A stretch of DNA of 64,000 bases from a virus (lineage: Duplodnaviria > Caudoviricetes). The translations under genes and the position numbers were made by a program. Location of the stretch: the IMG/VR virus record IMGVR_UViG_3300037400_002094, positions 29,893 through 93,892 of that record; one strand, given 5' to 3'. The notes beneath the pieces are model-generated. The model did no database searches and was not told where the DNA came from. It saw nothing but the letters and a program-made list of their open reading frames with translations. Positions 3,701-33,233 of the stretch are shown here, one piece after another; the stretch's first letter is position 1; each line of letters opens with the position of its first letter.

Positions 3701-6700
3701 ACACTGGAACATTGACTGAGGTATTTGGCTTCAAGACTGTGAAGGATGATAAGGGTGAAAAGAGGTATGTCATCGATAAGGACAGCTCATTGATGCTTAA
3801 CTGGGATTATTATACCCTTAAGAGCTGGAGGGGTGCTGGAAACTATGTGTTCACGCCACATACGGTACAGATGGCATTTTTTGTAATGGGTCTTGATTGT
3901 TTCGATAAATTCACCATCGACTACAAGAGGGCTATACTTACGTTGCCAAAGCTTTTGGCGTTACAGATTGGTGCTGTCATAGCCGCACATCTTTCAGCGA
4001 ATGGATTTGGTTCAGCCAATGGAAGTGCAATGCAGTTTACACAGAAGGCATTTAACAATATTAGGAAGTTAATACATGTCTCTGAGGCTTTTGAGAACAG
4101 TATGTCAAGATTCTTGAACTCATTACACCCACTTGTAAGACTGGAGTTCGTTAGGTATTTTGTAAACTGGAGTAATCAGAATTATTCTCTGATAAGCAAG
4201 AACCTTCATATAACTTACAACAGAGATACGAAGAAGTATATGTTCCACAACGTAGGTGCTTATGTTGTTATATACAGGAATGAGGATGACTATGGAAATA
4301 TCAATGTCCATAGGGCACTTATGAACCAAGATGCCCAGTGTGTAAAGGATATTACAAATAGCCTTATGATTCCAGTATCATTCATTAAGGGCACTATGTT
4401 ATCAGAGGTGAAACCAGATAACGGAAGACCATTTTCAAAGGGTAGTTTTGTTGAGCTGGATAAGAGGAAGGCTGAGACTTATTTGGATGCGTTCTTAACT
4501 AGACTCAGAGAGCTGTTGCCTAAGAATGAGGAGACAGACACAAACAATATGACTGCTATTGCTGGAAATCCTAAACAAACCAATGAAGACATAAAGATTG
4601 AGTTGTACAGATACTTGAAACAGGTGTTTGATAAGTGGATACCTTCATCAAAGCAAGCAGACTGGAGTTATAACTCTTTCTTCAACAGGAAGACAGAACA
4701 CCAGTTCCATTTCATCGACTCATATTATAACAAGATTGGTGACAAGCTATTGATTAACCCATTCAAGTTGTCTGAGAAGATAAAGCTTGGAATAACGTAC
4801 AGTGATGTTAACGTTACGATGTTCAACTTCATGGTAGAGGTGTTCAAGGAGCACAGGTGTATGATAAGGTGCATACAGAACTTCATAGACCTGTCAGACA
4901 GGAAAGCTATGGAGGATATGTTCCATACGATACCATACATGGGTATGAACACACCTAAAAAGTTCTCCGATTTTGTTGTTGTGTACACATATGCCCCATC
5001 TAAGAACTTGAATGTGGCAAACAGTGAGTTTAAAGATGACGGATTCATGCTCAATGACGAGTTGGAAACGCCACTGGCTATTAGGTCAAGGGGAAATAGT
5101 GATGACAGCTCTCTAAAGGAGTCTAGTACCTACTACAAGCTTCCAGCATTCGGTGTGTCTTATGGGAGACAGTATCAGAGCTTCTTCAAAAATATAGATG
5201 TCGGTATGACCAACCCTATTATGACACAGCAGGCAATCATCGCAAAGCATGCCATACTTCAGGCAAGTAGAGCAGCAGTCGGTAAAGTAAGTGTCGCCCA
5301 AGATTTGTATGATGTCTATACCAACCAGTCATTCACCTGTAAGGTTGAAATGATGGGTTGTGCATGGGTTCAGCCAATGATGTACTTCGTACTTCTTAAC
5401 ATGCCTATGTTCAGAGGCTCTTATATGATTATGAAGGTTACGCATAGGATAAGACCTGGAGATATGACCACTGAGATAGTTGGTTCTAGGATGTGTAATG
5501 TGTCAACAAAACTTGTGGAAGACATGTTTACAGACGAAAATGCTAGTACTGGAGAAAATATTAATAAGTCAAACGATAAACAATACACCAGTGCAGCACC
5601 TAGCAATGACTGCCCATACAAGACATTCCCAATATCTGAGGACGTTTCATCTGGTACTGAGCTAAAGACTATGACAAAAGCTGAGTTAGAAAGTGGTACT
5701 ACAATAATAATGAAGGGGCTTCTTGAGCTTATACAATCTAAAGAAGGCAATGAATGGTATCAAAGTAATAGTGGTAACGCAATAGCCTTTGCTGCTGGTA
5801 TTGCTGGAAACATGTACCATGAGACTCATAGTAAGCCTACATTCTATCCAGGAACGGTCAACCATAATGACAGAGGATATTTGTCTGGAGGACTTTGCCA
5901 ATGGAGAGGCCTGGAAGGAGAAAACCTTGTATACCTGTTAAGGAATGAGCCACAGAACTACGGTAAACCTCTCAGTGAGAGGCATAAAGGCGATAGTAGT
6001 ATAAAGCCTTATAAGGCAGGAGAAGGTAAGGATGATTATGTAGAGAAGGAACTTAACAGGATTGGTGTTGACGGACAGCTTAGGTTCTTGATTAACACCC
6101 TTACGTATCCAGCTAAGAAGACCAACTATATTACAGGTAATTACACAGTTGAGAAGTTCTGTAGTGCCTGTGGAAATAACCCAGAAAAGGCGGCTAAGGA
6201 GTTCCGTAGAATATACGAGATAAGTAGTCAGTGTGATGCGGCTAGATGGCAGGCAGCTAACTCTTTCTATAATGAGTACATGCGAATTAAAACAGGTGGC
6301 ACTGCGAAAAAAGTAGGAGAGGATGAGCAGCATAACACGAAGAAGTATAACGAGTTGTTCTTCAACGCAGTACAGAAGTCAGCATATTCATCACGTGCAA
6401 CGTCGGTTAAGCTCAAGGCAACTTATAAGGGTGATGATACACTTATGATTCAGCAGGCTTATAAGGGTGAGAACAAGCTTGGATGTGTTTTCGATATAAT
6501 ACTTAATGGATATTATGAACACGTTCAACATCTAAACTGGGTGTATGACAATACGTATAGCACGCCTCCTATTGCCATCACCGCTGTTGTCGGAGAGAAA
6601 ATAAACGTAGCTAATAGGAATATATGTGTGGAAAAGAATAAAGACACAGCGTCTGCAACAAGACCATTCTCTGAAAATGACAAGAAGAAGGGACAGATTA

Positions 6701-7389: not shown

Positions 7390-7404
7390 ATAAGTTGAGC
7401 TAAA

Positions 7405-7436
7405 TTTGTTTTTTTAACTTTTTTTATATATCTTTG
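7405..7436 (+). promoter_or_regulatory. Bacteroidota sigma-A-type promoter
   Basis: TTTG (7405-7408), 20-nt spacer, TATCTTTG (7429-7436); identical over 36 nt to 9963-9998. Confidence 0.85.
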
Positions 7437-7451
7437 CATAAAATTAGTGTT

Positions 7452-14843: not shown

Positions 14844-16253
14844 TTATTCTTTTCCAGTTGGTGATTTCGGAGGAGTTCCGTACTTTCCGATTCCAGAAGG
14901 GTTATTCCAACGTCCTCTTGGGTTTTCCTTCGTGTATTCCGCTGTTTCGTCTCCGTTTCTCATTTTATGTGCGTATGATGGATTGAATTTGTTTCCAGTA
15001 GCACCATGAGTTGCCGTAATTATCGCATAATCTCTTACCTGTTCTCCAGTATCTTTTACAACGCCACCCTTTTTGTCATGACATACAGCACAAGAGATAC
15101 CACATGGCGATTTAATCTTGTTAAGTTGTTTTGTCAAGGCAGCTACAATAGGTTGGTCAACCATTTTACCGTTCTTTTCGATTTTTGGATATACTTTCCT
15201 TAAGTGTTTAAGAGTATAAGGAGGCTTATCAAGTATCTTTTCACAATATGGATATTCAATCTGGTCTTTCCTGTCTTTCCAGAAGCTGCAAGGACACACA
15301 TAGTAATATCCAGACTCATCATCACTCATGCCCCACCTACCCCATTGAAGGATTGGCACTGTTATGTCATCGGTAGTTCCGTTTACTTCAAGCTTTTTCT
15401 CAACGCTAAATGGAACTTCCTCAGCTTTTTTACTACTCTTTAGATTATTGGCAATTTTCCATTCCTCGTACTCACTATCATATTTATCACTAATGAAGTC
15501 ATAATCAACAACCTGGTGAGGAGCAGCAAAGAAGTTTCTCTTCATAGAATCTATTCCCATTCTATCCAACACCTTATTAGTTGACGCATTTATAGCCATG
15601 ACCTTAGCTGCATCTTCCAGACTTGCAAGTCTTCCGTTTGCAGTATAAGCCATGCACTTCACGCCATATTCCTGTTCAACTTCCTGTGCAAACTTAACAG
15701 CAGCCCTAACAACGCTGTTGGTTGGGAAGTCACCAGCTTCATTAAATCTAACCCATTTTATAGGTGTCTTTGAATTTTTTAGACCATCGATATACATTTT
15801 AGCGATATCGAATATCTTATCTACCTTGTTGGTGGCTATAGCACGATTAACAAGTGTCTGAACTTTTACATTCTTTGAACGTGTGTCCTTAAGACGATTC
15901 TCACCAGCCACAGCATAACATGCAGCCTGTGTCACTGGGCATTGACCAGCAGACGGACAAGCAAATGCGGATGTGAAGTTTATGATAAGTGTATCTGGGC
16001 TTAACTTTGCATTACCTACTGAGAAAGGACCTCCTGCTATCTTCATGTCATTCTTATAACCAGGTAGTTTATAGAAGTCAGCGAATGCCTTGTTGTCTTT
16101 ATTATAGTCCTTGCCATAAAGTTCACTAGCCAAATCTTCAGTTGCCTGGTTAATTTTGTCTTTCAGCTTTGCTGGTAGGTTTCTAGATTGTTCTCCGATA
16201 ACACTTTCTTTTATAATGCGATGTAGTTGCCTATTAGTTAATTTAAATTTCAT
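14844..16253 (-). CDS. GP88-like (phage gene product 88) Cys-rich protein
   Basis: GNAKL...CPSAGQCPVTQAACYA, VRFNEAGDF, MAYT, C-terminal CPC and CGISCAVC; TATTTAT motif upstream on the minus strand. Confidence 0.6.
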   Translation of the reverse strand: MKFKLTNRQLHRIIKESVIGEQSRNLPAKLKDKINQATEDLASELYGKDYNKDNKAFADFYKLPGYKNDMKIAGGPFSVGNAKLSPDTLIINFTSAFACPSAGQCPVTQAACYAVAGENRLKDTRSKNVKVQTLVNRAIATNKVDKIFDIAKMYIDGLKNSKTPIKWVRFNEAGDFPTNSVVRAAVKFAQEVEQEYGVKCMAYTANGRLASLEDAAKVMAINASTNKVLDRMGIDSMKRNFFAAPHQVVDYDFISDKYDSEYEEWKIANNLKSSKKAEEVPFSVEKKLEVNGTTDDITVPILQWGRWGMSDDESGYYYVCPCSFWKDRKDQIEYPYCEKILDKPPYTLKHLRKVYPKIEKNGKMVDQPIVAALTKQLNKIKSPCGISCAVCHDKKGGVVKDTGEQVRDYAIITATHGATGNKFNPSYAHKMRNGDETAEYTKENPRGRWNNPSGIGKYGTPPKSPTGKE

Positions 16254-16289: not shown

Positions 16290-16320
16290 TTTGTTTTTTA
16301 ACTTTTTTTATATATCTTTG
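16290..16320 (+). promoter_or_regulatory. Bacteroidota sigma-A-type promoter
   Basis: TTTG-N19-TATCTTTG. Confidence 0.85.
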
Positions 16321-20446: not shown

Positions 20447-22657
20447 ATGCAAGTAATCAAGCGTGACAAAACAGAAGAATTGTTCCAAATTCAGAAAATT
20501 GAAAGTGCTATTGAAAGGGCGTTTGCATCATGCGGGAAAGAGCCAGATTACAAGGTAATCGACTGTATTAAAAGGATTTACAACATTCAGTCAAACGATA
20601 CAGTACATGTGGAGGACATACAGGATAACGTCGAGAAGTGTCTGATGGAGATTGATAAAGAGGTAGCGAAAGCATACATCATCTACAGATACAATCACAA
20701 GCTGATTCGTGAGAACAAGGACAAGCTGTACAAGGACATTACAAAGAAGCTCTTAGCCACAAATGTGACAAACCAGAACGCCAATGTTGATGAGCATTCC
20801 TTTGGCGGTAGAATGGGCGAAGTAAACAGACTGGTTCTCAAGGACTATGCATTGAAATATTGCATGTCCAGGAAGTCCAGAAACAATCACCTTAATAATG
20901 AGGTCTATATTCATGACCTGGATTCGTATGCTGCTGGAATGCATAACTGTCTCTCAATTCCATTTGATGACCTTCTTGCTAAGGGCTTCAATACGAGACA
21001 GACGGACGTTAGACCAGCAAATAGTATCAATACAGCAATGCAGCTTGTTGCAGTGATTTTCCAGTTACAGAGTTTACAGCAGTTTGGTGGCGTGTCGGCA
21101 ACGCACCTTGACTGGACGATGGTCCCATATGTACGTAAATCATTCTACAAGCATTTCAAGAACGGAGCAAGATATATAGAAGGAGTAAGGGATTTAAGTG
21201 AATTTAATGACTCAATGTCCATAGAGGACGAGAAGTACAAGGAGAGTGGTAACGTATACACATACGCTATTGAACAGACGCAGAAGGAACTGATACAGGC
21301 TGTTGAAGGTATGTATCATAACCTCAATACATTACAGAGCAGAAGCGGAAACCAGCTCCCATTTACATCTATCAACTATGGAACTTGTACACTTCCAGAG
21401 GGAAGAATGGTAATCAAGGCACTTCTTGATGGTTCTATAGATGGAGTTGGAAAACATCATAAGACACCTATTTTCCCATGCGGTATCTTCCAGATGATGC
21501 ATGGTGTAAACAAGGCAGAAGGAGACCCTAACTATGACTTATTCAAGCTTGCCCTCAAGTCTACATCACAGAGATTGTATCCAAACTACGCTAACTGTGA
21601 CTGGACTGGTAACGCAGGCTACGACCCTAACGACCCAAGGACTTATTTCAGCACTATGGGCTGTAGAACCGCCAATGGCTTTGACGTAAACGGTCTTGGT
21701 CAGTTGAAGGACGGTAGAGGTAACATATGCCCTGTTACAGTCATCATGCCTACACTTGCTATGGAGGCTAAGGAAAAGGTTGAGGAGAAGACTATCAAGG
21801 AAGAAAGAAAGTATACCGACGAAGAGGTATTAACCGAGTTCATGAAAATTCTTAACAAAAAGATTGACGAGGCTAAGGACATGCTCATCGAGAGATTCGA
21901 GTGGATATGCAGTCAGTCACCAGCTTCAGCAAGATTCATGTGGGAGAACAGGACTATGGCTGGATATGTACCAGAAGAGGGAATACGTTCAGCATTGAAG
22001 CATGGTACTCTTGCACTTGGACAACTTGGATTAGCTGAGACTCTACAGATTCTCGTACACACAGACCATACCACAGATAAGGGTATGGAAGTTGCAAAGG
22101 AGATTGAGACAATGTTTAGTGAGAAGATTAAGGGTTTCAAAGAGACATATAAGCTCAACTTCGGTGTGTACTTTACACCAGCAGAGAATCTTTGCTACAC
22201 TGCCATGAAGAAGTTCAAGGACAGGTTCGGTGTTATACCTAACGTATCAGACAGGGAGTACTTTACTAACTCAATGCACGTTCCAGTATGGCATGATATG
22301 TCACCGTTCCAGAAGATTGATATCGAAGCACAGCTTACAAGCTTCTCAACAGCAGGATGTATTACTTATGTGGAGCTTCCTAGCACCACTAAGCACAACC
22401 TGGATGCACTGGAGGCAATTGTACTCTATGCTATGGATAAGAACATACCTTATTTTGCAATAAATGTCCCTAACGACACCTGTGAGGACTGCGGATATAC
22501 CGATGAAATGGGCGATACTTGCCCAATGTGCGGAAGTAAGAATATCAGCAGGCTACGTAGAGTTACTGGTTACTTGACTGGAGACTACAAGACGGCCTTC
22601 AACTTCGGTAAGCAAGAAGAGGTCAAGGACAGAGTAAAACATATAAAGGAGTTTTAA
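20447..22657 (+). CDS. nrdD: Anaerobic (class III) ribonucleotide reductase with ATP cone
   Basis: VIKRD ATP cone, YIHDLD...HNC, MGCRT, TPAENL, YFTNS, CEDC...CPMC, glycyl-radical motif RRVTGYL. Confidence 0.97.
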   Translation: MQVIKRDKTEELFQIQKIESAIERAFASCGKEPDYKVIDCIKRIYNIQSNDTVHVEDIQDNVEKCLMEIDKEVAKAYIIYRYNHKLIRENKDKLYKDITKKLLATNVTNQNANVDEHSFGGRMGEVNRLVLKDYALKYCMSRKSRNNHLNNEVYIHDLDSYAAGMHNCLSIPFDDLLAKGFNTRQTDVRPANSINTAMQLVAVIFQLQSLQQFGGVSATHLDWTMVPYVRKSFYKHFKNGARYIEGVRDLSEFNDSMSIEDEKYKESGNVYTYAIEQTQKELIQAVEGMYHNLNTLQSRSGNQLPFTSINYGTCTLPEGRMVIKALLDGSIDGVGKHHKTPIFPCGIFQMMHGVNKAEGDPNYDLFKLALKSTSQRLYPNYANCDWTGNAGYDPNDPRTYFSTMGCRTANGFDVNGLGQLKDGRGNICPVTVIMPTLAMEAKEKVEEKTIKEERKYTDEEVLTEFMKILNKKIDEAKDMLIERFEWICSQSPASARFMWENRTMAGYVPEEGIRSALKHGTLALGQLGLAETLQILVHTDHTTDKGMEVAKEIETMFSEKIKGFKETYKLNFGVYFTPAENLCYTAMKKFKDRFGVIPNVSDREYFTNSMHVPVWHDMSPFQKIDIEAQLTSFSTAGCITYVELPSTTKHNLDALEAIVLYAMDKNIPYFAINVPNDTCEDCGYTDEMGDTCPMCGSKNISRLRRVTGYLTGDYKTAFNFGKQEEVKDRVKHIKEF

Positions 22658-22660
22658 GTT

Positions 22661-23152
22661 ATGAGAGTAAATAAGATAACGTACCCAGAGCTTAGCAACG
22701 GAATTGGATTCAGAATCACCGTGTGGGTTTCTGGGTGCGTCCATCACTGTAAAGGATGCCACAACCCAGAGACCTGGGACTTTAACGGTGGAAGGGAGTT
22801 CACCGATGACGACAAGAAGGAGATATTCAAGCTCCTTACTATACCTTATTTAAAAGGTGTTACTTTTTCTGGGGGAGACCCGCTATGTTCATATGAAGAT
22901 GTTTTATCCTTTGCGAAGGAATTAAAAGAGAAGTTCCCAGATAAGGACATCTGGGTTTATACAGGTTTTAAGTTTGAATATGTAGCAGAACACATGAGTG
23001 AGATTTTGGATTATGTAGATTACATAGTCGATGGTAAGTTTGAAGAAGACAAGAAGAATCTTAGTTTAGCCTTTAGAGGTTCAGAGAACCAAAGGATTTG
23101 GAAAAAGGAAGAGGGAGAGTTCAAAGTAATTAATTTAGATGAAGGTGGTTAG
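22661..23152 (+). CDS. nrdG: Anaerobic RNR activating radical SAM enzyme
   Basis: SGCVHHCKGCHN, SGGDPL, VDGKF, FRGSENQRI; adjacent to nrdD. Confidence 0.96.
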   Translation: MRVNKITYPELSNGIGFRITVWVSGCVHHCKGCHNPETWDFNGGREFTDDDKKEIFKLLTIPYLKGVTFSGGDPLCSYEDVLSFAKELKEKFPDKDIWVYTGFKFEYVAEHMSEILDYVDYIVDGKFEEDKKNLSLAFRGSENQRIWKKEEGEFKVINLDEGG

Positions 23153-24368: not shown

Positions 24369-24413
24369 AATCGGGATAAAATTTGTTTATCTCGATTTTT
24401 TTATATATCTTTG
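24369..24413 (+). promoter_or_regulatory. Terminator hairpin fused to a sigma-A promoter (cassette 2)
   Basis: AATCGGGATAAA-ATTTG-TTTATCTCGATT, T-tract, TATCTTTG at 24406-24413 (spacer 20). Confidence 0.8.
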
Positions 24414-24436
24414 CGTATATAAACGTTTTTTAACAT

Positions 24437-26411: not shown

Positions 26412-26738
26412 ATGACTGGTATTGAAATTGTATTGTGGATTGTATTATGGATTATTGGTATTATAGGTACACTAGTCGTTTTATATTATGTCAATAATAA
26501 GGTGACATTGGCTAATGCGGTTTGTGCAATATTATTCTGGTGGATTATATTACCAATATTTTTCATAGCAGGCGTAGCATTTGTAATTTCCTGGCTTTTC
26601 ACAACGGCTAATGATATTGTCCTGGTGGAGAGAGGCGACTGGTGGCTTTCCAAGGAAGAGAGGAAGATATTAAGGGAGGAAAAGAAAAAGGAGAAGAAAG
26701 GAAAAGGTTTAACATTAAATAACATTTTAAGAAAATGA
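26412..26738 (+). CDS. Small membrane protein
   Basis: Two hydrophobic segments and a Lys-rich C-terminus; ATGA overlap with the TBDR gene. Confidence 0.7.
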   Translation: MTGIEIVLWIVLWIIGIIGTLVVLYYVNNKVTLANAVCAILFWWIILPIFFIAGVAFVISWLFTTANDIVLVERGDWWLSKEERKILREEKKKEKKGKGLTLNNILRK

Positions 26739-28777
26739 AAAAGTTTATCGGTTTATTTATGTGTCTGGTAATGACAACAATGACCTATGCTGACACAATC
26801 GAGAGTACAGATTCTGTAATTAACCAGACGTTGGACGAGTTCACCGTCACCTCCTTCTATCGGAGTGCTACCCCCATGTTGGGCAGTTCTGTGGACTCTA
26901 AGAACCTTGTTGCCAACAACTACGGTCAAGAGCCTTCTTGGTTGTTTGCCAAGATGCCTTCCATCTTCGCATTCAGCGACAACGGCACTGACTTTGGTTA
27001 CGGCTATTTCCGCATTCGTGGTCTTGACCAGACCCGCATTAATGTAACGCTGGACGGTATGCCTTGGAATGAGGCTGAGGATTTTGGCTGTTACTTCGCT
27101 AATAGTCCCGACATTATGGCAGACGCAGGTACAATTGACGTTGGGCGTGGTACAAGCACCTATAATCCAGGAACTGCATCCTACGGTGGAAGTATCAACA
27201 TCAGCTCTGTAGACCTGTTGAAGAACACCACATCATATGCTGAGTTCGGTGCAGGTAGCTTCGCATCAGCCAAGACATCTGTAAACATCAACACAGGACT
27301 CATGGGTAAGTGGGCATTACATGTGCGTGGTACATTGTCGCATACTGATGGTTATCGTGAGCACAGCCAGAACAACTCACAATCACTTGGTTTCAAGCTG
27401 GGTTACTTCATCAATGAAAAGAGTTGGGTTGACCTCTTATCTATTACAGGCTACCATACCAATGGACAGGGTTATATCGGCGTTTCTATGGAAGACCTTG
27501 AGAAGAACCGACACCTCAATGGCTGTAGCAAGGACGAAGATGACAATTTCTTCCAGACCGTCAATAAGCTGACGTATAACAGTTGGCTTGGCGAGAAGAT
27601 TCTGTTTACCTCTTCACTCTACTGGAACATGCTGATGGGTGAGTATCGCTTTGACCTTGATAACTATATGATTCGCCTCTGTGACGAGCCTATGGAGACT
27701 GGTATGCTATACAACTACGGTCTTAAGCAGCACATGTACGGTGGCAATGCAGCAGCACGTTACTACATCAATGATGGCTCTATTACCATTGGTACTAATA
27801 TCTACAAGTTCGAGCGTGAGCACTACCTTGATGACCGTAACATCGACAAGGCACGTAACATCGACCCTGCTGAGTACTATGGCAATCGTGGTCACAAGAT
27901 GGACTATGAGGTGTTCTTGAATGCTAAAAAGTCATTCGGAAACTTTACATTGTCAGCCAATGCACAGTATCGTGGCGTTAACTTCTGGTATCGTGACCTT
28001 ATGAACCCGCTGGTTGAGTTTGACGAGGACACCAAGTGGAATTTCCTTAACTTCGGTGCTGATGTGAGCTACAAGATTGGTCGTCACAATGAGGTTTACT
28101 TGAAGTACGCACGAGCCAACCGTGAACCGACACGAACCGATATGTTCGGTGGTAATGAGTGGTATCCTGGTGCGCTTACAACGACTGATGCTGAGGTTTC
28201 CAATGACGTTGAAATTGGCTGGAACATTGCTACGAAGCGTCTTAACGCCAACTTGAACCTGTTTGGCATGTTCTTCGAGAATGAGCGTTCATTGACTGGT
28301 ACAATCGGTCTGAACGGTCTCCCAGAGCACGAGAAGGCAGACAATAGTCATCGTATGGGTATCGAGTTGTATGTCGATTATAATCCGTTTGCAAAATTGC
28401 ATCTTATCAACAATTCTTCATATTCAAATAATAAGGTTAAGACTGACACCTATGGCACTAAGACTCATGTTCTTACTCCAGGATGTACGTTTAACCAGGA
28501 TATTGAATGGAGAGATAAGATATGGACATTTGGTATAGGATATAAGTATCGTAGCCATATGTACCTTGATATGGCTAATACTGAACGAATTCCAGACCTG
28601 TGGCAGCTTAATCTCTATGGTAGTGTTACCCTTGGTAAGTTCATCGTCAGTGGGCATGTTAATAACATTACCAATCGTGACAATATGCAGACAGGTGTGC
28701 TAACCAATACCAACAAGGCTCGTTTCATGCCTGATGCACCAACGAATGTGTTTACTTCAATTAAATATATGTTCTAA
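26735..28777 (+). CDS. TonB-dependent outer-membrane receptor (Bacteroidota vitamin-uptake type)
   Basis: Signal peptide MKKFIGLFMCLVMTTMTYA; TonB-box-like LDEFTVT; plug RIRGLDQTRINVTLDGMP...GRG...YGGSIN; REPT; VNNITN; C-terminal IKYMF beta-signal. Confidence 0.9.
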   Translation: MKKFIGLFMCLVMTTMTYADTIESTDSVINQTLDEFTVTSFYRSATPMLGSSVDSKNLVANNYGQEPSWLFAKMPSIFAFSDNGTDFGYGYFRIRGLDQTRINVTLDGMPWNEAEDFGCYFANSPDIMADAGTIDVGRGTSTYNPGTASYGGSINISSVDLLKNTTSYAEFGAGSFASAKTSVNINTGLMGKWALHVRGTLSHTDGYREHSQNNSQSLGFKLGYFINEKSWVDLLSITGYHTNGQGYIGVSMEDLEKNRHLNGCSKDEDDNFFQTVNKLTYNSWLGEKILFTSSLYWNMLMGEYRFDLDNYMIRLCDEPMETGMLYNYGLKQHMYGGNAAARYYINDGSITIGTNIYKFEREHYLDDRNIDKARNIDPAEYYGNRGHKMDYEVFLNAKKSFGNFTLSANAQYRGVNFWYRDLMNPLVEFDEDTKWNFLNFGADVSYKIGRHNEVYLKYARANREPTRTDMFGGNEWYPGALTTTDAEVSNDVEIGWNIATKRLNANLNLFGMFFENERSLTGTIGLNGLPEHEKADNSHRMGIELYVDYNPFAKLHLINNSSYSNNKVKTDTYGTKTHVLTPGCTFNQDIEWRDKIWTFGIGYKYRSHMYLDMANTERIPDLWQLNLYGSVTLGKFIVSGHVNNITNRDNMQTGVLTNTNKARFMPDAPTNVFTSIKYMF

Positions 28778-28779
28778 TT

Positions 28780-29178
28780 ATGGATAAGTTATATATAGAT
28801 GATACACATCCTGGGTTTCTTAGAATGAAAAAAGATGATGGAACTGTTGTAAGTCATTTGGATTATAAATGTTATATCAAAAGTGAAACAAAAGAAGTAT
28901 ATTCAGTATCTATCGATTTACTAGAAACCAAAGAAGGGTATAGAAATAATGGATATGCCACAAAATTGGTTAACCATTTAATCGAAAAGTACAGAGGGGT
29001 AGACATAGAACTATATTGTATACCTCTTGTTCAAAAAGATGGTTTTGACCAGGCGCAAATAGAATTATTATTGTTTTATAAACACCTTGGATTCAAAGAA
29101 TTTAAAGAATATGAAGGACGTGTATTTGGTGGAATCACCAAAAAATATTTTAAAATGGTAAGAAAAGCAGTTAATTAG
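28780..29178 (+). CDS. GNAT-family acetyltransferase
   Basis: IDLLETKEGYRNNGYATKLV (motif A) and FYKHLGF. Confidence 0.8.
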   Translation: MDKLYIDDTHPGFLRMKKDDGTVVSHLDYKCYIKSETKEVYSVSIDLLETKEGYRNNGYATKLVNHLIEKYRGVDIELYCIPLVQKDGFDQAQIELLLFYKHLGFKEFKEYEGRVFGGITKKYFKMVRKAVN

Positions 29179-29182
29179 TATT

Positions 29183-29231
29183 AAAAAATGAGGTAATCGT
29201 TTGGTTATCTCATTTTTTTTATGTAAATTTG
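29183..29231 (+). promoter_or_regulatory. Terminator hairpin fused to a sigma-A promoter (cassette 4)
   Basis: AAAAAATGAGGTAAT...GTTATCTCATTTTTT with TTTG at 29200-29203 and TAAATTTG at 29224-29231 (spacer 20). Confidence 0.75.
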
Positions 29232-29256
29232 CAGGTGAAATAAAATTTAATTAATT

Positions 29257-29754
29257 ATGTTAGTTTGGGCTTTTAATAAAAATAATAAATCATTTAAATT
29301 GTGCGGAACTTATGAAACAATGTTTCATACAGATAGAAAAGGTGATGAGAAAAGTCGTGTTTATATAAATGAATGCGATTATGAAATACCTAAGGATGTT
29401 GTGGAGAGTCATTTTTCTGATTTACAGTTTAATCCTTTTACAGAGTACAAATTCATTGTTAATAAAGAGAAATACGATGAATATAATTTCTGGGGAAGCT
29501 TTCCATATGGTGGTTTTTTTGTAAGTGCTTGTGTTGTTAATAATGATAACGAAATAATCAAGGACGGATTTTACCCCCAATCAAATAGTTGTGAAATACG
29601 GATTTTAGAGGAATTTTTTAATTGTATCGGATATGATAGCGTTATTGGTAGGTTTAATTGGCGAGAAGTAAAAGAATATGAGGAAAATGGTTATAAACTA
29701 GTTTTATGGTATGGGGCAGCTAAAAATAATGCAATGTTTGTAAAAGAAAGGTAA
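29257..29754 (+). CDS. Hypothetical protein (AT-rich)
   Basis: 165-aa ORF, first after cassette 4. Confidence 0.65.
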   Translation: MLVWAFNKNNKSFKLCGTYETMFHTDRKGDEKSRVYINECDYEIPKDVVESHFSDLQFNPFTEYKFIVNKEKYDEYNFWGSFPYGGFFVSACVVNNDNEIIKDGFYPQSNSCEIRILEEFFNCIGYDSVIGRFNWREVKEYEENGYKLVLWYGAAKNNAMFVKER

Positions 29755-29756
29755 AA

Positions 29757-30842
29757 ATGAAAATAGGAATTTGTTTCGGTGGGTATTGCCCAATGCATCG
29801 TGGACACCTCGATGCCATCATGAGGGCTAAGAAGGAGAATGACAAGGCATTTGTCATCGTCTGCGGGTACGACAATGAGGAACGTGCTGGCAACATCAAC
29901 ATGACGTTGAAGGAGCGCACGGCAATTGTACGTAAAATATTCGAGAAGGACGAGCTTATTACTGTATTGTCCATTAACGACACAGAGCTTGGTATTGACG
30001 AGAGTATGTGTGATAACAACTGGATTGTATGGCAAGAGAAGGTTAAAGAACTAGTTGGTTTTGACAAATACGATTTGTATACTAAATATACTTGGTATGT
30101 TGCAGAGCCTTATTACAAGGAAATGCTGGAGAAACATAACCTTCTTAATGCTCAAACCACACTGATTGATAAGGTTGTGCCTGTAAGTGGTACTGCCATC
30201 CGTGAGAATCCATTGAAGTACTGGAAGTACATTGTTAGGGAGTACCGAAACAACCTGTGTCATAACATCCTTATTACTGGCACTGCTTCTGAGGGTAAGA
30301 CAACCCTAGTGCGTGACATTTCCACGTACTTTGGTATTGACCACTCTGAGGAGTATGGAAGGGATGATTTGCTTGCCAAGTGTAAGACCGACACAGACCT
30401 TACGGCAGATGATTTCATAGACTTCCTTATTGGTCAGAGTGTGGACGTATGTAAGCGTGTAAGGAACAACGACCAGGGTGTGTTTATCTCTGATACTGAC
30501 AACCTTGTTACGCTGATGTATGCACTGGCTTATACAGAAGACCCAAACGTGCCTATCACTAAGGAAGAGTACGATACAAAGGTGCTTCCAGCAGCTAAGT
30601 CACTTGCAGGTCGTGTGAAGTGGGATAAGATTTTCCTGCTGCCTCCAAAGAATAAGTTTGTGGACGATGGCAGTCGCTACATGAAGCAGTCGTCTATCGA
30701 CGAGCGTATTGCCAACTTCAACAAGCTGGTTGAGCTGCTTAAGGAGTTTGGTCTCTGGGAGAAGGTGAAGATTCTTGACGGCGATTTCCTGTCAAATTTC
30801 AACAAGTTAAAGGATTACATTAACAGTTTGTATAATGAGTAA
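29757..30842 (+). CDS. nadR: Bifunctional NMN adenylyltransferase / ribosylnicotinamide kinase (NadR without HTH)
   Basis: FGGYCPMHRGH (HxGH nucleotidyltransferase), VSGTAIRENP, P-loop GTASEGKTT, EEYGR, DTD, FVDDGSR. Confidence 0.9.
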   Translation: MKIGICFGGYCPMHRGHLDAIMRAKKENDKAFVIVCGYDNEERAGNINMTLKERTAIVRKIFEKDELITVLSINDTELGIDESMCDNNWIVWQEKVKELVGFDKYDLYTKYTWYVAEPYYKEMLEKHNLLNAQTTLIDKVVPVSGTAIRENPLKYWKYIVREYRNNLCHNILITGTASEGKTTLVRDISTYFGIDHSEEYGRDDLLAKCKTDTDLTADDFIDFLIGQSVDVCKRVRNNDQGVFISDTDNLVTLMYALAYTEDPNVPITKEEYDTKVLPAAKSLAGRVKWDKIFLLPPKNKFVDDGSRYMKQSSIDERIANFNKLVELLKEFGLWEKVKILDGDFLSNFNKLKDYINSLYNE

Positions 30843-31500
30843 GAGTTTTTCGGACATAGTGAGGCTTGAGGGTACTCATGCTGGCGTGAATTTCAGCGTG
30901 TTCTTCATCCTTCTTGGCGTGTTGACACAGGGACTTGCATTCAAATTCAGTGGCGGTAGTGAGTTGTCATTGATTAGCGGATGCCTTGGTATCATATCCG
31001 TTGTATTGTGCAGTCAGAGAAAGATTTCATTCTATATCTTTGGTTTTGCACAGCTTATCACATATGTCATATTATGTGTGAATGAGAAACTGTATGGAGA
31101 AATAGCCGAGAATGCTTTTTATTTCGTCACAATGCTCTTCGGATTGTTCCATTGGATAAAGCACTACAATGAGAATGAAATAGCCGTAAAGACGAGAAAA
31201 ATGACTCACTTGCAGAATGTGTGGGTATTCATAGCTACTGTGTTCGGAACGCTTATGTTGTACACTGGATTAATGAGAACTGATGACAGCCAGCCACTAA
31301 TGGATGCAATTACCACTCTTCCAGCGTTTGTAGCCCAAATCCTTATGATATTCAGATTCAAGGAGAGTTGGTTCTACTGGTTTATAATTGATGTTGGTAG
31401 TATTATAATGTGGAGTATTGCTGGTGACTGGTGTATGGTATTGCAGTTTGTATTCTGGACTATCAATTGTATCTATGGCTATTATAAGTGGAGTGATTGA
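30835..31500 (+). CDS. pnuC: Nicotinamide riboside transporter, PnuC family
   Basis: Multiple TM segments; LYGE...YF...GLFHW, PLMDAITT, AQILM...ESWFYWFIID, NCIYGYYKW; overlaps the nadR stop. Confidence 0.9.
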   Translation: MSKSFSDIVRLEGTHAGVNFSVFFILLGVLTQGLAFKFSGGSELSLISGCLGIISVVLCSQRKISFYIFGFAQLITYVILCVNEKLYGEIAENAFYFVTMLFGLFHWIKHYNENEIAVKTRKMTHLQNVWVFIATVFGTLMLYTGLMRTDDSQPLMDAITTLPAFVAQILMIFRFKESWFYWFIIDVGSIIMWSIAGDWCMVLQFVFWTINCIYGYYKWSD

Positions 31501-31502
31501 CT

Positions 31503-32366
31503 ATGATTAAGTATAATGTAAACACATGTGACCAGATTGAGAATGAATTGCAGATTCATTTTACAAAGCTGTGTCCTAATAAATGCCCATTCTGTGTAGA
31601 TGCGTTGAATAAGGGACTCCATAATGCGATTAAGAGACCAGATGTGAATGCCATCTATCAGAGGGTATATGAGAACAGGGGTAAGATTAACTCTATCTGT
31701 ATTAGTGGTGGAGAGCCTATGCTTTTCATAGATGATGTGTTGGATTTAATTCGTAAGGTTAAGTCCAGCACCAACCTTAAGGTATATGTCATTACATCAG
31801 TGCCAGAACAGTGTTACCAGTACAAGTATGCGTTCTACAATATCCTTGATGAGTGTGATGGCATGGCAATATCGCCTCAGCACTATAATGAGGAGATTGG
31901 AGACCAGATACGTGGTCATAAGTCAACATTCGACAGACAGGGATTCTATCGCAGCATCGAGGACAAGAGCAAGATTACCATGAACATCAATATGGTGAAG
32001 CCATACTTGTGTGACAAGGACGAAATCTGCAAGTGTATCGAGCATTATAACCAGATGGGTTTCAAGAACATCAAGCTGGTTGAGCTGTTCGACAGACCAG
32101 ATATGTTTGTTTCGTTTGAGAAGACGTTTGGTGTGAAACTAAAGTCACCGTTTGCACACGGTTGTAAGACCGAGTTTGATATTACGCCATATATACCTTC
32201 GTATGATGGCAAGTTCATCCTAAAGAGAACGTGTTTCCTTGTGAACAAGTGTGTTCACGCTACCTTGGCTGATACACTGAAGGCTGCTACCAGGAACATC
32301 TTTGGGAAGGAATACTACTTTGGTGTCGTCTATGAGGATGGAAGTCTTCATCCTTATTGGATTTGA
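31503..32366 (+). CDS. Radical SAM enzyme of unknown function
   Basis: CPNKCPFC (CxxxCxxC), ISGGEP; a few further C-terminal Cys; starts 2 nt after the pnuC stop. Confidence 0.88.
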   Translation: MIKYNVNTCDQIENELQIHFTKLCPNKCPFCVDALNKGLHNAIKRPDVNAIYQRVYENRGKINSICISGGEPMLFIDDVLDLIRKVKSSTNLKVYVITSVPEQCYQYKYAFYNILDECDGMAISPQHYNEEIGDQIRGHKSTFDRQGFYRSIEDKSKITMNINMVKPYLCDKDEICKCIEHYNQMGFKNIKLVELFDRPDMFVSFEKTFGVKLKSPFAHGCKTEFDITPYIPSYDGKFILKRTCFLVNKCVHATLADTLKAATRNIFGKEYYFGVVYEDGSLHPYWI

Positions 32367-32370
32367 CGGA

Positions 32371-32380
32371 TATTTATAAA
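32371..32380 (+). promoter_or_regulatory. Putative late promoter
   Basis: TATTTATAAA between the rSAM stop and the peptide ATG. Confidence 0.5.
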
Positions 32381-32398
32381 CATAAAACATATAAGGTT

Positions 32399-32734
32399 AT
32401 GGGAAAACTTATTCTAATTGAGGAAGGCGAGCTTAAGAAAATGATAAGCGAAGCTGTCACCAATGCGGTTGATGGTATCACTAAGAAGATTACGACTCGT
32501 GCAGCAAGGGCAAACAGAAACATGCTGTTTGTGCCTCCTGTTGTTAATCCTTTTGACGATGATGACGATGATGACTGTGGTTACAGTTGTGGTAGTAGTC
32601 GTTCTGTAGGAGGATGCGGTTCTGATAGCCATTATGACTACAGCTATGGTGGTTGTGGGTCTGGCGGTGGGGGTTGTGGCTCTTCATCACCTTCATACGG
32701 TGGTTGTGGTTATAATGATAGTGGCCGTTGTTAA
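32399..32734 (+). CDS. Gly/Cys/Ser/Tyr-repeat peptide; candidate RiPP precursor or metal-binding peptide
   Basis: 111 aa from ATG 32399: helical leader, D7 tract, core CGYSCG...VGGCGS...YGGCGSGGGGCGS...YGGCGY...GRC (7 Cys). Confidence 0.7.
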   Translation: MGKLILIEEGELKKMISEAVTNAVDGITKKITTRAARANRNMLFVPPVVNPFDDDDDDDCGYSCGSSRSVGGCGSDSHYDYSYGGCGSGGGGCGSSSPSYGGCGYNDSGRC

Positions 32735-32752
32735 GAAATTATTTTACTCTAT

Positions 32753-32782
32753 AAAATGCAGTCAGAAATGGCTGCATTTTTT
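32753..32782 (+). terminator. Intrinsic terminator closing the accessory island
   Basis: AAAATGCAGTCA-GAAA-TGGCTGCATTTT plus TT. Confidence 0.85.
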
Positions 32783-32843: not shown

Positions 32844-33233
32844 ATGGCTAAGAAACAGTTTTTTGGTGTTAAGTTCCCATTTTTGACAGATAATGGGAGA
32901 CATTTTTACGTTGCTGCGAACGAAACCATCGCAGACAAGGTAAAGAGTCAGCTCATGCATATTGTGTTTACACCTAAGGGTCAGAGAATTAGGAATCCAG
33001 AGTTTGGAACAGACCTCATCAAGTTCATATTCGACCAGAATGATGGTACTACTTGGGAGGCTGTTAAGACTGAGGTTAGTGAATCAGTTGCAAGATGGTC
33101 TAATAACCTGTCTTTGAAGGAGATAAAAGTAGTGAAGAGTGAGGAAGACGAATCACAGGTATTCGTTAGGATTGACTATAGCGTTACAGAAGGTAACAAG
33201 GTGACTAATGACAGTATAGTAGTAGAGATATAA
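32844..33233 (+). CDS. Baseplate wedge subunit (T4 gp25 / GPW-like)
   Basis: FTPKGQRIRNPEFGTDL motif; preceded by the variant late motif TACTTATAG. Confidence 0.85.
   Translation: MAKKQFFGVKFPFLTDNGRHFYVAANETIADKVKSQLMHIVFTPKGQRIRNPEFGTDLIKFIFDQNDGTTWEAVKTEVSESVARWSNNLSLKEIKVVKSEEDESQVFVRIDYSVTEGNKVTNDSIVVEI

What the first reader, a model, noticed from the sequence alone, without database searches (positions are those of the whole stretch)
31503..32782. Candidate phage-encoded RiPP system: radical SAM enzyme plus a (Y/V/G)GGCG-repeat precursor with a packaging-like leader
Seen: a CxxxCxxC rSAM gene followed 32 nt later by a 111-aa ORF built as helical leader, D7 acidic spacer and a 52-aa core with six CG dipeptides (four as GGCG) and a terminal Cys, then a strong terminator. 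Known: rSAM maturases cross-link Cys-rich cores (sactipeptides, ranthipeptides) and their precursors have leader/core organisation. Inference: a modified peptide made by a phage. Because the leader resembles the I-x-E tag and the gene has a late-type motif, the prohead protease could remove the leader and the product could be delivered in the virion. Caveats: the rSAM is short (287 aa) with no clear RRE or full SPASM domain, and Gly/Cys tails could simply bind metal or Fe-S.
Basis: partly seen in the sequence, partly recalled or inferred. Interest (0 to 1): 0.8.

Follow-up and report, generated by a model that had tools for sequence, protein, structure and literature searches.

The report
Phage radical-SAM enzyme and Cys-tail partner
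A large gut or rumen phage carries a small radical SAM enzyme next to a small protein with a floppy glycine/cysteine tail ending in cysteine; the pairing recurs, split or fused, in many distantly related phages, so it is a real, uncharacterised enzyme-partner system of unknown chemistry and purpose.

Summary

- **Linkage.** In a tree of 51 distinct homologues of the radical SAM enzyme (rSAM), 34 of the 35 assessable members of the main clade have a neighbouring gene for a Gly/Cys-rich tail ending in Cys. These include Lak megaphages at 42-45% identity.
- **Sister clade.** It carries 31-45 aa peptides ending HCG.
- **Fusions.** Six or seven remote relatives have a helical linker plus a Cys-His tail fused to the enzyme's C-terminus.
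- **Uniqueness.** The tail pattern occurs once per genome, at this gene.
- **The enzyme.** It is a phage-restricted family of about 287 aa. It has no SPASM or RRE domain. Three Cys outside the SAM-cluster motif are invariant. Its closest sequence relatives are viperins, far below family cut-offs.

Best reading (about 0.45): the enzyme acts directly on the tail cysteines, as a RiPP-like or protein modification, possibly thioether cross-links. Main rival (about 0.3): the tail is a redox or metal arm serving a viperin-like enzyme with another substrate. Virion delivery is unproven, with some supporting hints. First readers of this scan noted the same pair in other genomes.

The parts
29201..29231 (+). 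Promoter-like site (TTGG...TAnnTTTG type) that probably starts the transcription unit orf165-nadR-pnuC-rSAM-small ORF
   Evidence: pattern match with 1 mismatch. One search shows the same long motif upstream of several other genes in the window. No strong terminator lies between here and 32753.
31503..32366 (+). Radical SAM enzyme, 287 aa, belonging to a phage-restricted family
   Evidence: Pfam, PHROGs and NCBIfam scans. 130 homologues. AlphaFold2 model with pLDDT 89. Fold matches to rSAM cores at Z 14-17.
31572..31595 (+). CxxxCxxC motif (Cys24, Cys28, Cys31) that binds the SAM-cleaving [4Fe-4S] cluster
   Evidence: Invariant in alignments A1 and A3. The GGEP motif at residues 69-72 is also invariant.
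32399..32734 (+). Partner protein, 111 aa. Residues 1-8 are extended, 9-39 form a helix, 40-52 are a linker, 53-59 are seven Asp, and 60-111 are the Gly/Cys/Ser/Tyr tail.
32555..32575 (+). Seven-Asp spacer (D53-D59)
   Evidence: a 9-nt DNA repeat at 32554-32575. Its length varies among close relatives.
32576..32731 (+). Cys/Gly tail (C60-C111) with 7 Cys. The last two motifs, GGCG and the terminal G-R-C, are the best-conserved part.
   Evidence: Nearly invariant G101, G102, C103 and invariant G109, C111. Motif statistics over 70 tail proteins.
32753..32780 (+). Intrinsic terminator that closes the unit before the baseplate genes (gp25-like gene at 32844)
   Evidence: 12-bp stem, 4-nt loop, T run.

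Best explanation
The two genes form a dedicated enzyme-target pair. The rSAM enzyme binds the helical N-terminal part of the small protein, or is covalently joined to it in the fused forms. It then acts on the cysteines of the flexible C-terminal tail.

The most likely chemistry is Cys-centred. The 5'-deoxyadenosyl radical abstracts a hydrogen from the tail. Meanwhile a tail thiolate sits on the open iron of an auxiliary Fe-S cluster held by the three invariant extra cysteines (C9, C221, C244). The result would be thioether-type cross-links, or another covalent change at the last two Cys.

The product would be a small modified protein that stays in the infected cell or in the particle. It would not be an exported antibiotic.

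Shown: the pairing, the fusions and the anatomy. Inferred: the auxiliary cluster, direct modification, the type of bond and the biological role.
For: 1. **Linkage.** 34 of 35 assessable members of the main rSAM clade have a tail gene next to or near them. The sister clade has short HCG-ending peptides in 4 of 8.
2. **Linkage survives rearrangement.** There is a convergent arrangement in L061, inserted genes in L010, L017 and L064, and two tail genes in L017, L064 and L061.
3. **Fusions.** Six or seven remote homologues carry a 39-75 aa extension of helical linker plus two Cys-His motifs at the extreme C-terminus. Three of them were confirmed in the DNA.
4. **Uniqueness.** The tail pattern occurs exactly once in each of three genomes of 170-544 kb, at the linked gene.
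5. **Leader conserved, core variable.** The N-terminal helix is conserved while the tail varies in repeat number, as in RiPP precursors.
6. **Extra cysteines.** C9, C221 and C244 are invariant down to 23% identity. C221 and C244 flank a predicted beta-hairpin, as in twitch/SPASM auxiliary-cluster sites.
7. **Fold.** Top fold matches include the peptide maturases SuiB, CteB, SkfB, ChlB and PqqE at Z 14-17.
8. **No other modifying enzyme.** No YcaO or flavoprotein decarboxylase was found in five related phage genomes.
9. **Precedents.** CrpC cross-links the Cys-rich protein CrpA (PMC13692751). HxsC, a small rSAM without SPASM, matures the repeat protein HxsA (PMC13128918).
Against: - No modification has been observed.
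- The enzyme lacks the SPASM and RRE domains of all characterised thioether synthases.
- Fold matches to viperin, MoaA and PFL activase tie with those to the peptide maturases.
- By sequence the nearest solved and curated relatives are viperins, which act on nucleotides.
- No acceptor residue is conserved between the cysteines. Even the flanking Gly is replaced by His or Ser in remote forms.
- Fusing a substrate to its enzyme means one turnover per enzyme, unless the fusion acts in trans.
- Some family members have no tail gene within 2.5-3 kb: L060, L032, L023, L025, L026 and L027.
- I had no model coordinates, so I could not check whether the auxiliary cysteines cluster in space.
Confidence: 0.45

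Rival explanations
1. The tail is a working arm, not a substrate. It would be a flexible C-terminal dithiol, or Cys/His metal or cluster ligand, that is fused or docked through the helix. It would deliver electrons, a hydrogen atom, sulfur or a fourth cluster ligand to a viperin-like rSAM whose true substrate is something else, plausibly a nucleotide or nucleoside.
For: - Only the Cys pair, 6-15 residues apart at the extreme C-terminus, is universal. In remote and fused forms the motifs are Cys-His, which suits metal or cluster ligation.
- Fusion to the enzyme's own C-terminus through a long helical linker is typical of an intramolecular arm.
- The nearest relatives in three libraries are viperins or pVips: NCBIfam 35 bits, PDB profile E about 1e-11, PADLOC E 1e-10 to 1e-12.
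- In several lineages the pair sits among a TonB-dependent receptor gene, pnuC and nadR, in different gene orders.
- From general knowledge, mobile C-terminal Cys tails act as redox shuttles in class I ribonucleotide reductase, thioredoxin reductase and PAPS reductase.
Against: - All viperin scores lie far below the family cut-offs and cover only the N-terminal ~190 residues.
- Expansion to 5-9 GGCG units, with rapid gain and loss of individual Cys, is odd for a precise catalytic arm.
- The pair persists in a 97%-complete 410 kb phage with no pnuC, and lies 21-22 kb from pnuC in Lak phages.
- In mid-sized phages it lies in the head module.
Confidence: 0.3
2. Virion cargo version of the modification model. 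The N-terminus would be a capsid-targeting tag cut by the prohead protease after [I/L]-x-E. The modified tail protein would be packaged and delivered with the DNA.
For: - The ~20-residue N-terminal motif recurs on unrelated ORFs in this genome and its relatives.
- [I/L]-x-[E/D] at residues 6-8 is kept in most of the 28 aligned relatives.
- Peptidase_S77 (T4 gp21-type) domains exceed the cut-off in two related genomes and match weakly in the 95%-identical relative.
- The order in L022 and L028 is minor head protein, three ORFs, rSAM, peptide, scaffold, major head protein. In L025 the rSAM lies just before the scaffold gene.
Against: - In the window the pair belongs to an early-promoter unit with nadR and pnuC, and a terminator separates it from the baseplate genes.
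- The tag is absent from the Lak, L018 and L065 partners, which have a different N-terminus.
- There is no proteomic evidence.
- No S77 match was found in the window's own record, which is only 32% complete.
Confidence: 0.12
3. The adjacency has no direct biochemical meaning. The rSAM would belong functionally to the NAD salvage operon (nadR-pnuC), or be a stand-alone auxiliary gene, and the small protein would be an unrelated metal- or Fe-S-binding protein.
For: - The pair is co-transcribed with nadR and pnuC in the window.
- pnuC, nadR or the TonB-dependent receptor gene lies near the rSAM in at least five lineages.
- Gly/Cys tails can bind metals.
Against: - Enzyme-tail fusions exist.
- The tail gene accompanies the rSAM where nadR and pnuC are absent or distant.
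- The tail occurs only once per genome, always at the rSAM.
- In L059 and L067 the rSAM-tail pair moves as a unit.
Confidence: 0.05

Closest known systems
Sactipeptide and ranthipeptide systems (CteB with SCIFF, SkfB, PapB with freyrasin), from general knowledge; structures 5WGG, 5WHY and 6EFN appear among the fold matches
   Same: An rSAM enzyme lies next to a precursor that has a conserved leader and a Cys-rich core, sometimes with repeated Cys motifs. These enzymes use an auxiliary cluster with an open iron that binds the substrate Cys. Fold similarity is Z 15-16.
   Different: The phage enzyme has no SPASM or twitch Pfam match and no RRE, and is 287 aa against about 400-450. The precursor is 90-125 aa with GGCG units and an obligatory C-terminal Cys. 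No protease or exporter accompanies it. It is found only in phages. Fused enzyme-tail forms exist.
CrpC/CrpA of Methanococcus voltae (PMC13692751)
   Same: An rSAM enzyme installs thioether (ranthionine) links on a neighbouring Cys-rich protein rather than on a short peptide. Substrate engagement uses N-terminal protein domains.
   Different: CrpC has a SPASM domain with three [4Fe-4S] clusters and an RRE. It is archaeal and is not related at family level.
HXS antiphage system, HxsB/C/D with HxsA (PMC13128918)
   Same: HxsC is a small rSAM of about 290 aa without SPASM that matures a protein carrying short tandem repeats, and the setting is phage-host conflict. The NCBIfam HxsC profile matches the window enzyme weakly (30.8 bits).
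   Different: The score is far below the 267.9-bit cut-off. There is no HxsB or HxsD partner, the repeats are GGCG rather than HxS, the partner has no signal peptide or peptidoglycan-binding domain, and the system is encoded by the phage rather than the host.
Viperin and prokaryotic viperins (pVip)
   Same: These are the closest relatives by sequence in three libraries. They share an HFT...CxxxCxxC...GGEP core and a similar size of about 280-300 aa. pVip genes often sit beside nucleotide kinase genes (general knowledge), and here nadR is nearby.
   Different: Scores are 35-44 bits against a 180-bit cut-off. Only the first ~190 residues align. The C-terminal third differs and carries invariant Cys221 and Cys244. 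Viperins have no Cys-tail partner.
Borosin RiPPs (fused OphMA type and split type), from general knowledge
   Same: The same family occurs with the core peptide fused to the C-terminus of its modifying enzyme and as separate enzyme and precursor genes.
   Different: Borosins use SAM-dependent N-methyltransferases, not rSAM enzymes, and there is no sequence relationship.
MftC/MftA (mycofactocin) and PqqE/PqqA, from general knowledge
   Same: An rSAM enzyme acts on the extreme C-terminus of a small peptide. MftA ends in a Cys-Gly-Val-Tyr motif, and two phage tails end in GGCY.
   Different: Both are SPASM enzymes that need a PqqD-type chaperone. The PqqE profile scores only 32 bits against a cut-off of 381.

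Membership tests
Radical SAM superfamily | CxxxCxxC cluster motif, a GGE-type SAM-binding motif and a partial TIM barrel | tested here: met
   PF04055 scores 37.1 bits against 29.5. C24, C28, C31 and G69-G70-E71-P72 are invariant. The AlphaFold2 model (pLDDT 89) matches rSAM cores at Z 14-17.
SPASM/twitch peptide maturases (sacti- and ranthipeptide synthases) | C-terminal SPASM or twitch domain with its Cys-rich motif that binds auxiliary cluster(s) | tested here: not met
   No SPASM match in Pfam at E<=0.1. Only three extra Cys are invariant: C9, C221 and C244. The hairpin flanked by C221 and C244 looks twitch-like, but this is inference only.
SPASM/twitch peptide maturases | N-terminal RRE (PqqD-like) leader-binding domain | tested here: not met
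   No PqqD match. The rSAM core starts at about residue 12.
SCIFF-type or other named RiPP precursors | Match of the small protein to a curated precursor model | tested here: not met
   No Pfam, PHROG or PADLOC match. In NCBIfam the only match is a noise-level one at E 0.24.
RiPP system in general | Precursor with a recognition (leader) part and a modified core, encoded beside its modifying enzyme | tested here: met
   A conserved helix at residues 9-39 plus a disordered variable tail. The linkage census and the tree.
RiPP system in general | Covalent modification of the core, then leader removal and release | not testable with these tools
   This needs mass spectrometry. No protease or exporter gene lies in the unit.
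Viperin / pVip | Score above the curated family cut-off over the whole length, including the nucleotide-binding C-terminal part | tested here: not met
   NF038283 scores 35.3 bits against 180 and TIGR04278 scores 18.5 against 450. PDB viperins align only to profile positions 11-192. PADLOC pVip gives 39 bits.
Glycyl-radical enzyme activases / NrdG | Score above the cut-off and pairing with a glycyl-radical enzyme | tested here: not met
   TIGR02495 scores 38.8 against 131, and PFLA scores 23.5 against 231.75. A separate NrdD-like gene (20447-22657) and a second, NrdG-type rSAM gene (22661-23152) lie elsewhere in the window. These two names rest on their sequences and gene order, not on a family scan.
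HxsC (HXS system) | Score above the cut-off, with HxsA, HxsB and HxsD neighbours | tested here: not met
   TIGR03977 scores 30.8 against 267.9. The neighbours are pnuC, the tail gene and baseplate genes.

The most novel reading that the evidence does not exclude
This may not be a RiPP at all but a new two-part rSAM machine of large phages. A viperin-like enzyme would carry a detachable or fused C-terminal Cys arm as its built-in reductant or cluster ligand. It would chemically alter a nucleotide or an NAD-related compound during infection, for host takeover or to counter NAD- or nucleotide-based defences. This would explain the repeated association with a TonB-dependent receptor, PnuC and NadR.
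Probability: 0.2. Interest if true: 0.85.

Novelty: new variant of a known kind. Interest (0 to 1): 0.68.

Why it matters
Radical SAM maturases with Cys-rich partners are known from bacteria and archaea.

This family is widespread in the largest gut and rumen phages, including Lak megaphages. It lacks the domains thought necessary for peptide recognition and thioether formation. It also occurs both split and fused.

If the tail is modified, this defines a minimal rSAM peptide-modifying scaffold and a first phage-made product of that type. If the tail is an arm, it defines a new way of supplying electrons or ligands to an rSAM enzyme. In either case it gives a concrete, cheap experiment on a gene pair conserved in megaphages that cannot yet be cultured.

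Tried and rejected
- **Tail-only protein search.** It returned only close relatives and no other tail-bearing families.
- **ESM Atlas.** It gave only virus-only rSAM clusters without a function.
- **Family scans of the small protein.** Pfam, PHROGs, NCBIfam and PADLOC gave nothing.
- **Microcin B17-type azole formation.** The Gly/Cys/Ser composition suggested it. No YcaO was found in five related genomes.
- **LanD-type decarboxylation of the C-terminal Cys.** No HFCD flavoprotein was found.
- **RNR activase.** Rejected, because a separate NrdD-like gene and a second, NrdG-type rSAM gene lie at 20447-23152.
- **Glycyl-radical site.** The CG-aromatic motif resembles the NrdD site, but there is no catalytic partner and the motif is not conserved.
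- **'Late-type motif'.** TATTTATA is not enriched.
- **Megablast of the locus against phage records.** No match.
- **Neighbours of the fused forms.** They lie on short contigs and have no informative PHROG matches.
- **Spatial clustering of the auxiliary cysteines.** Model coordinates are not exposed, so I could not check it.
- **Literature.** Four searches for a described phage system of this kind found none.
Full report
**What is there**

The window is part of a 93.9 kb fragment, about 32% complete, of a large phage genome. On the + strand at 31503-32366 lies a 287-aa radical SAM (rSAM) enzyme. It has the CxxxCxxC motif at Cys24/28/31 and matches Pfam Radical_SAM and Fer4_12. It has no SPASM and no PqqD/RRE match.

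Thirty-two nucleotides later, a 111-aa ORF runs 32399-32734. It has seven Asp at residues 53-59. Its 52-aa tail holds seven Cys and six CG dipeptides, four of them as GGCG, and ends in Cys. A 12-bp-stem terminator follows at 32753-32780.

AlphaFold2 on 28 relatives gives one confident helix at residues 9-39 and a disordered tail from residue 50. I could not identify the 'late-type motif'.

**Transcription context**

Upstream lie a TonB-dependent receptor, two small ORFs, NadR and PnuC. Downstream lie gp25-like and gp6-like baseplate genes. An early-type promoter-like site at 29201-29231 resembles the sites in front of several other genes in the window. Together with the terminator at 32753, it brackets orf165-nadR-pnuC-rSAM-small ORF as one unit. 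A separate NrdD-like gene and a second, NrdG-type rSAM gene lie at 20447-23152, named from their sequences and gene order, so this enzyme is not the RNR activase.

**Is the pairing real?**

The enzyme has at least 130 homologous clusters. Nearly all are 284-300 aa and sit on contigs of up to 427 kb. They include 15 Lak megaphage records at 42-45% identity.

In one genome for each of 185,579 species, the only true match is a 410 kb contig that is also held as a viral genome. The family is therefore essentially phage-only, and the Atlas agrees. A profile search of 1.84 billion representatives finds 90 clusters at E<=1e-30.

I fetched about 100 loci and asked which ORFs end in Cys with at least 2 Cys and 6 Gly in the last 30 residues. 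The answer was 52 of 6640 ORFs, essentially all beside the rSAM gene. Some loci are the same contig held in two collections.

On a maximum-likelihood tree of 51 distinct enzymes, the main clade has 43 members:
- 34 have such a neighbour;
- 8 have too little flanking sequence to judge;
- 1 (L060) lacks it.

The linkage survives several kinds of change:
- inserted genes (L010, L017, L064);
- a convergent orientation (L061);
- duplication of the tail gene (L017, L064, L061);
- endings in GGCY instead of GGC (L065, L066).

In Lak-A2 the tail is still readable in the +1 frame after an A8 run. This points to a homopolymer sequencing error or a frameshift.

The sister clade has lower identity (37-40%) and GC up to 58%. 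It carries conserved ORFs, 31-45 aa in L021/L022/L028 and L071, ending in HCG-type motifs right after the enzyme gene.

The DNA pattern for a GGCG unit followed by a G-C-stop ending occurs exactly once in each of three genomes of 170, 410 and 544 kb. In each case it is at the linked gene.

**Fusions**

Among remote relatives found by the profile search, six have a 39-75 aa C-terminal extension. It consists of a charged helical linker and two Cys-His motifs 7-12 residues apart at the very end. A seventh has a single such motif. Three of these ORFs were confirmed in the DNA. This is Rosetta-stone evidence that enzyme and tail work together physically.

**What is conserved**

In the partner, the N-terminal helix is well conserved within the window's lineage. 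The tail changes in length through in-frame gain and loss of GGCG units, from 2 to 8 Cys. Individual Cys come and go even among relatives at 93-98% identity.

The last two motifs and the terminal Cys are kept. The C-terminal tripeptide is GGC in 64% and GRC in 16% of 70 tail proteins, and Cys spacing is mostly 6-15 residues. Lak and the 410 kb phage have only these two Cys. The N-terminal parts of distant partners are not homologous to each other.

The common denominator is therefore a pair of Cys on a flexible extreme C-terminus.

In the enzyme, the SAM-cluster Cys and the GGEP motif are invariant. So are C9, C221 and C244, down to 23% identity. C104 is invariant only in the closer set. C221 and C244 flank a predicted beta-hairpin. 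That is the arrangement seen around auxiliary clusters in twitch/SPASM enzymes.

Three ligands would leave one iron open. I could not measure distances in the model, so the auxiliary cluster remains an inference.

**Which rSAM is it?**

No curated family is reached:

| Family | Score (bits) | Cut-off (bits) |
|---|---|---|
| NrdG2 | 38.8 | 131 |
| pVip | 35.3 | 180 |
| PqqE | 32 | 381 |
| HxsC | 30.8 | 268 |

The profile's best solved relatives are viperins at E about 1e-11, over positions 11-192 only. PADLOC also gives weak pVip matches, for the fused forms too.

By fold, SuiB, GDGT-MAS, viperin, MoaA, CteB and PFL activase tie at Z 16-17, and SkfB, BlsE, ChlB, PqqE and anSME follow at 14-15. 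The enzyme is thus a new, compact rSAM subfamily. Its core is nearest to viperins and its C-terminal third is its own.

**Mechanism**

Two readings fit.

(a) *The tail is the substrate.* The anatomy is that of a RiPP or protein-modification pair. A three-Cys auxiliary cluster with an open iron is what thioether-forming rSAMs use to hold the donor Cys. No other modifying enzyme (YcaO, LanD type) is present in five related genomes. There are precedents for rSAM cross-linking of Cys-rich proteins (CrpC/CrpA) and for a small SPASM-less rSAM maturing a repeat protein in phage-host conflict (HxsC/HxsA). Fused and split forms coexist in borosins (general knowledge).

(b) *The tail is an arm.* Only the Cys pair is universal. 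Cys-His versions suit metal or cluster ligation. Fusion through a long linker is what intramolecular redox arms look like. The enzyme core is viperin-like.

I give (a) about 0.45 and (b) about 0.3. The chemistry cannot be decided by computation.

**Biological role**

Two contexts recur.

*Nucleoside-uptake genes.* In several lineages the pair sits among a TonB-dependent receptor, pnuC and nadR, in different orders:
- receptor-rSAM-tail-pnuC-nadR in L059;
- receptor-rSAM-tail-nadR-pnuC in L067;
- pnuC-tail-rSAM in L061.

However, a 97%-complete 410 kb phage has the pair and no pnuC, and in Lak phages pnuC is 21-22 kb away.

*Head genes.* In mid-sized phages of the sister clade the enzyme lies inside the head module. 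The order there is minor head protein, three ORFs, rSAM, peptide, scaffold, major head protein. In L025 it lies just before the scaffold gene.

The first ~20 residues of the window's partner recur at the N-termini of unrelated ORFs of these phages. T4-type prohead protease domains occur in related genomes.

**Verdict**

This is a real, conserved, phage-restricted two-component system, sometimes fused: a new variant of the rSAM-plus-Cys-rich-partner theme. Its product and role are unknown. First readers of this scan flagged the same pair in other genomes, and those notes are unchecked.

Noticed in passing
window 26735-31500; also L059:509-5320 and L067:1-3630: A TonB-dependent receptor, NadR and PnuC travel with the rSAM-tail pair in at least three different gene orders. 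In two of them the pair is inserted between the receptor and the pnuC/nadR genes.
   Followed up: partly
window 14844-16253 (-); own genome G000:8262-8459 (-) and G000:14948-15607 (+), both before the window start; L057:423-902; L006:1835-2143: A ~20-residue N-terminal motif (hydrophobic, then L-T-E-S-D-L, then basic, then I-x-E-x-V) is shared by unrelated ORFs and by the partner protein. It could be a common targeting or docking tag.
   Followed up: partly
L001 (Lak-A2, MK250019.1) about 5205-5400: The partner gene of Lak-A2 is interrupted at an A8 run. The conserved Cys tail continues in the +1 frame. This is either a homopolymer sequencing error or a frameshift.
   Followed up: partly
L130 (G001:82997-83326), L131 (G003:145884-146219), L132 (G002:189817-190236): T4-type prohead protease (Peptidase_S77) domains lie inside unusually long ORFs of 565-930 aa in related large phages.
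   Followed up: no
L017:4518-5320, L064:3918-4611, L061:2156-2500 and 3858-4250 (-): Some lineages carry two tail-bearing genes near one rSAM gene. The two have different N-terminal parts, and one has a less Gly-rich tail.
   Followed up: no
window 7400-7450, 16290-16320, 24390-24435, 29201-29231: A long, nearly identical promoter-like element (TTTG, a T-rich spacer, TAnnTTTGCA) precedes several genes.
   Followed up: no
window 20447-23152: An NrdD-like gene and a second, NrdG-type rSAM gene (anaerobic ribonucleotide reductase and its activase, named from sequence and gene order). This fits a strictly anaerobic host.
   Followed up: no
window 32554-32575 and relatives (proteins P0121-P0126): The poly-Asp spacer (4-8 Asp) and the number of GGCG units differ between relatives at 93-98% identity, through in-frame slippage-like changes.
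   Followed up: partly
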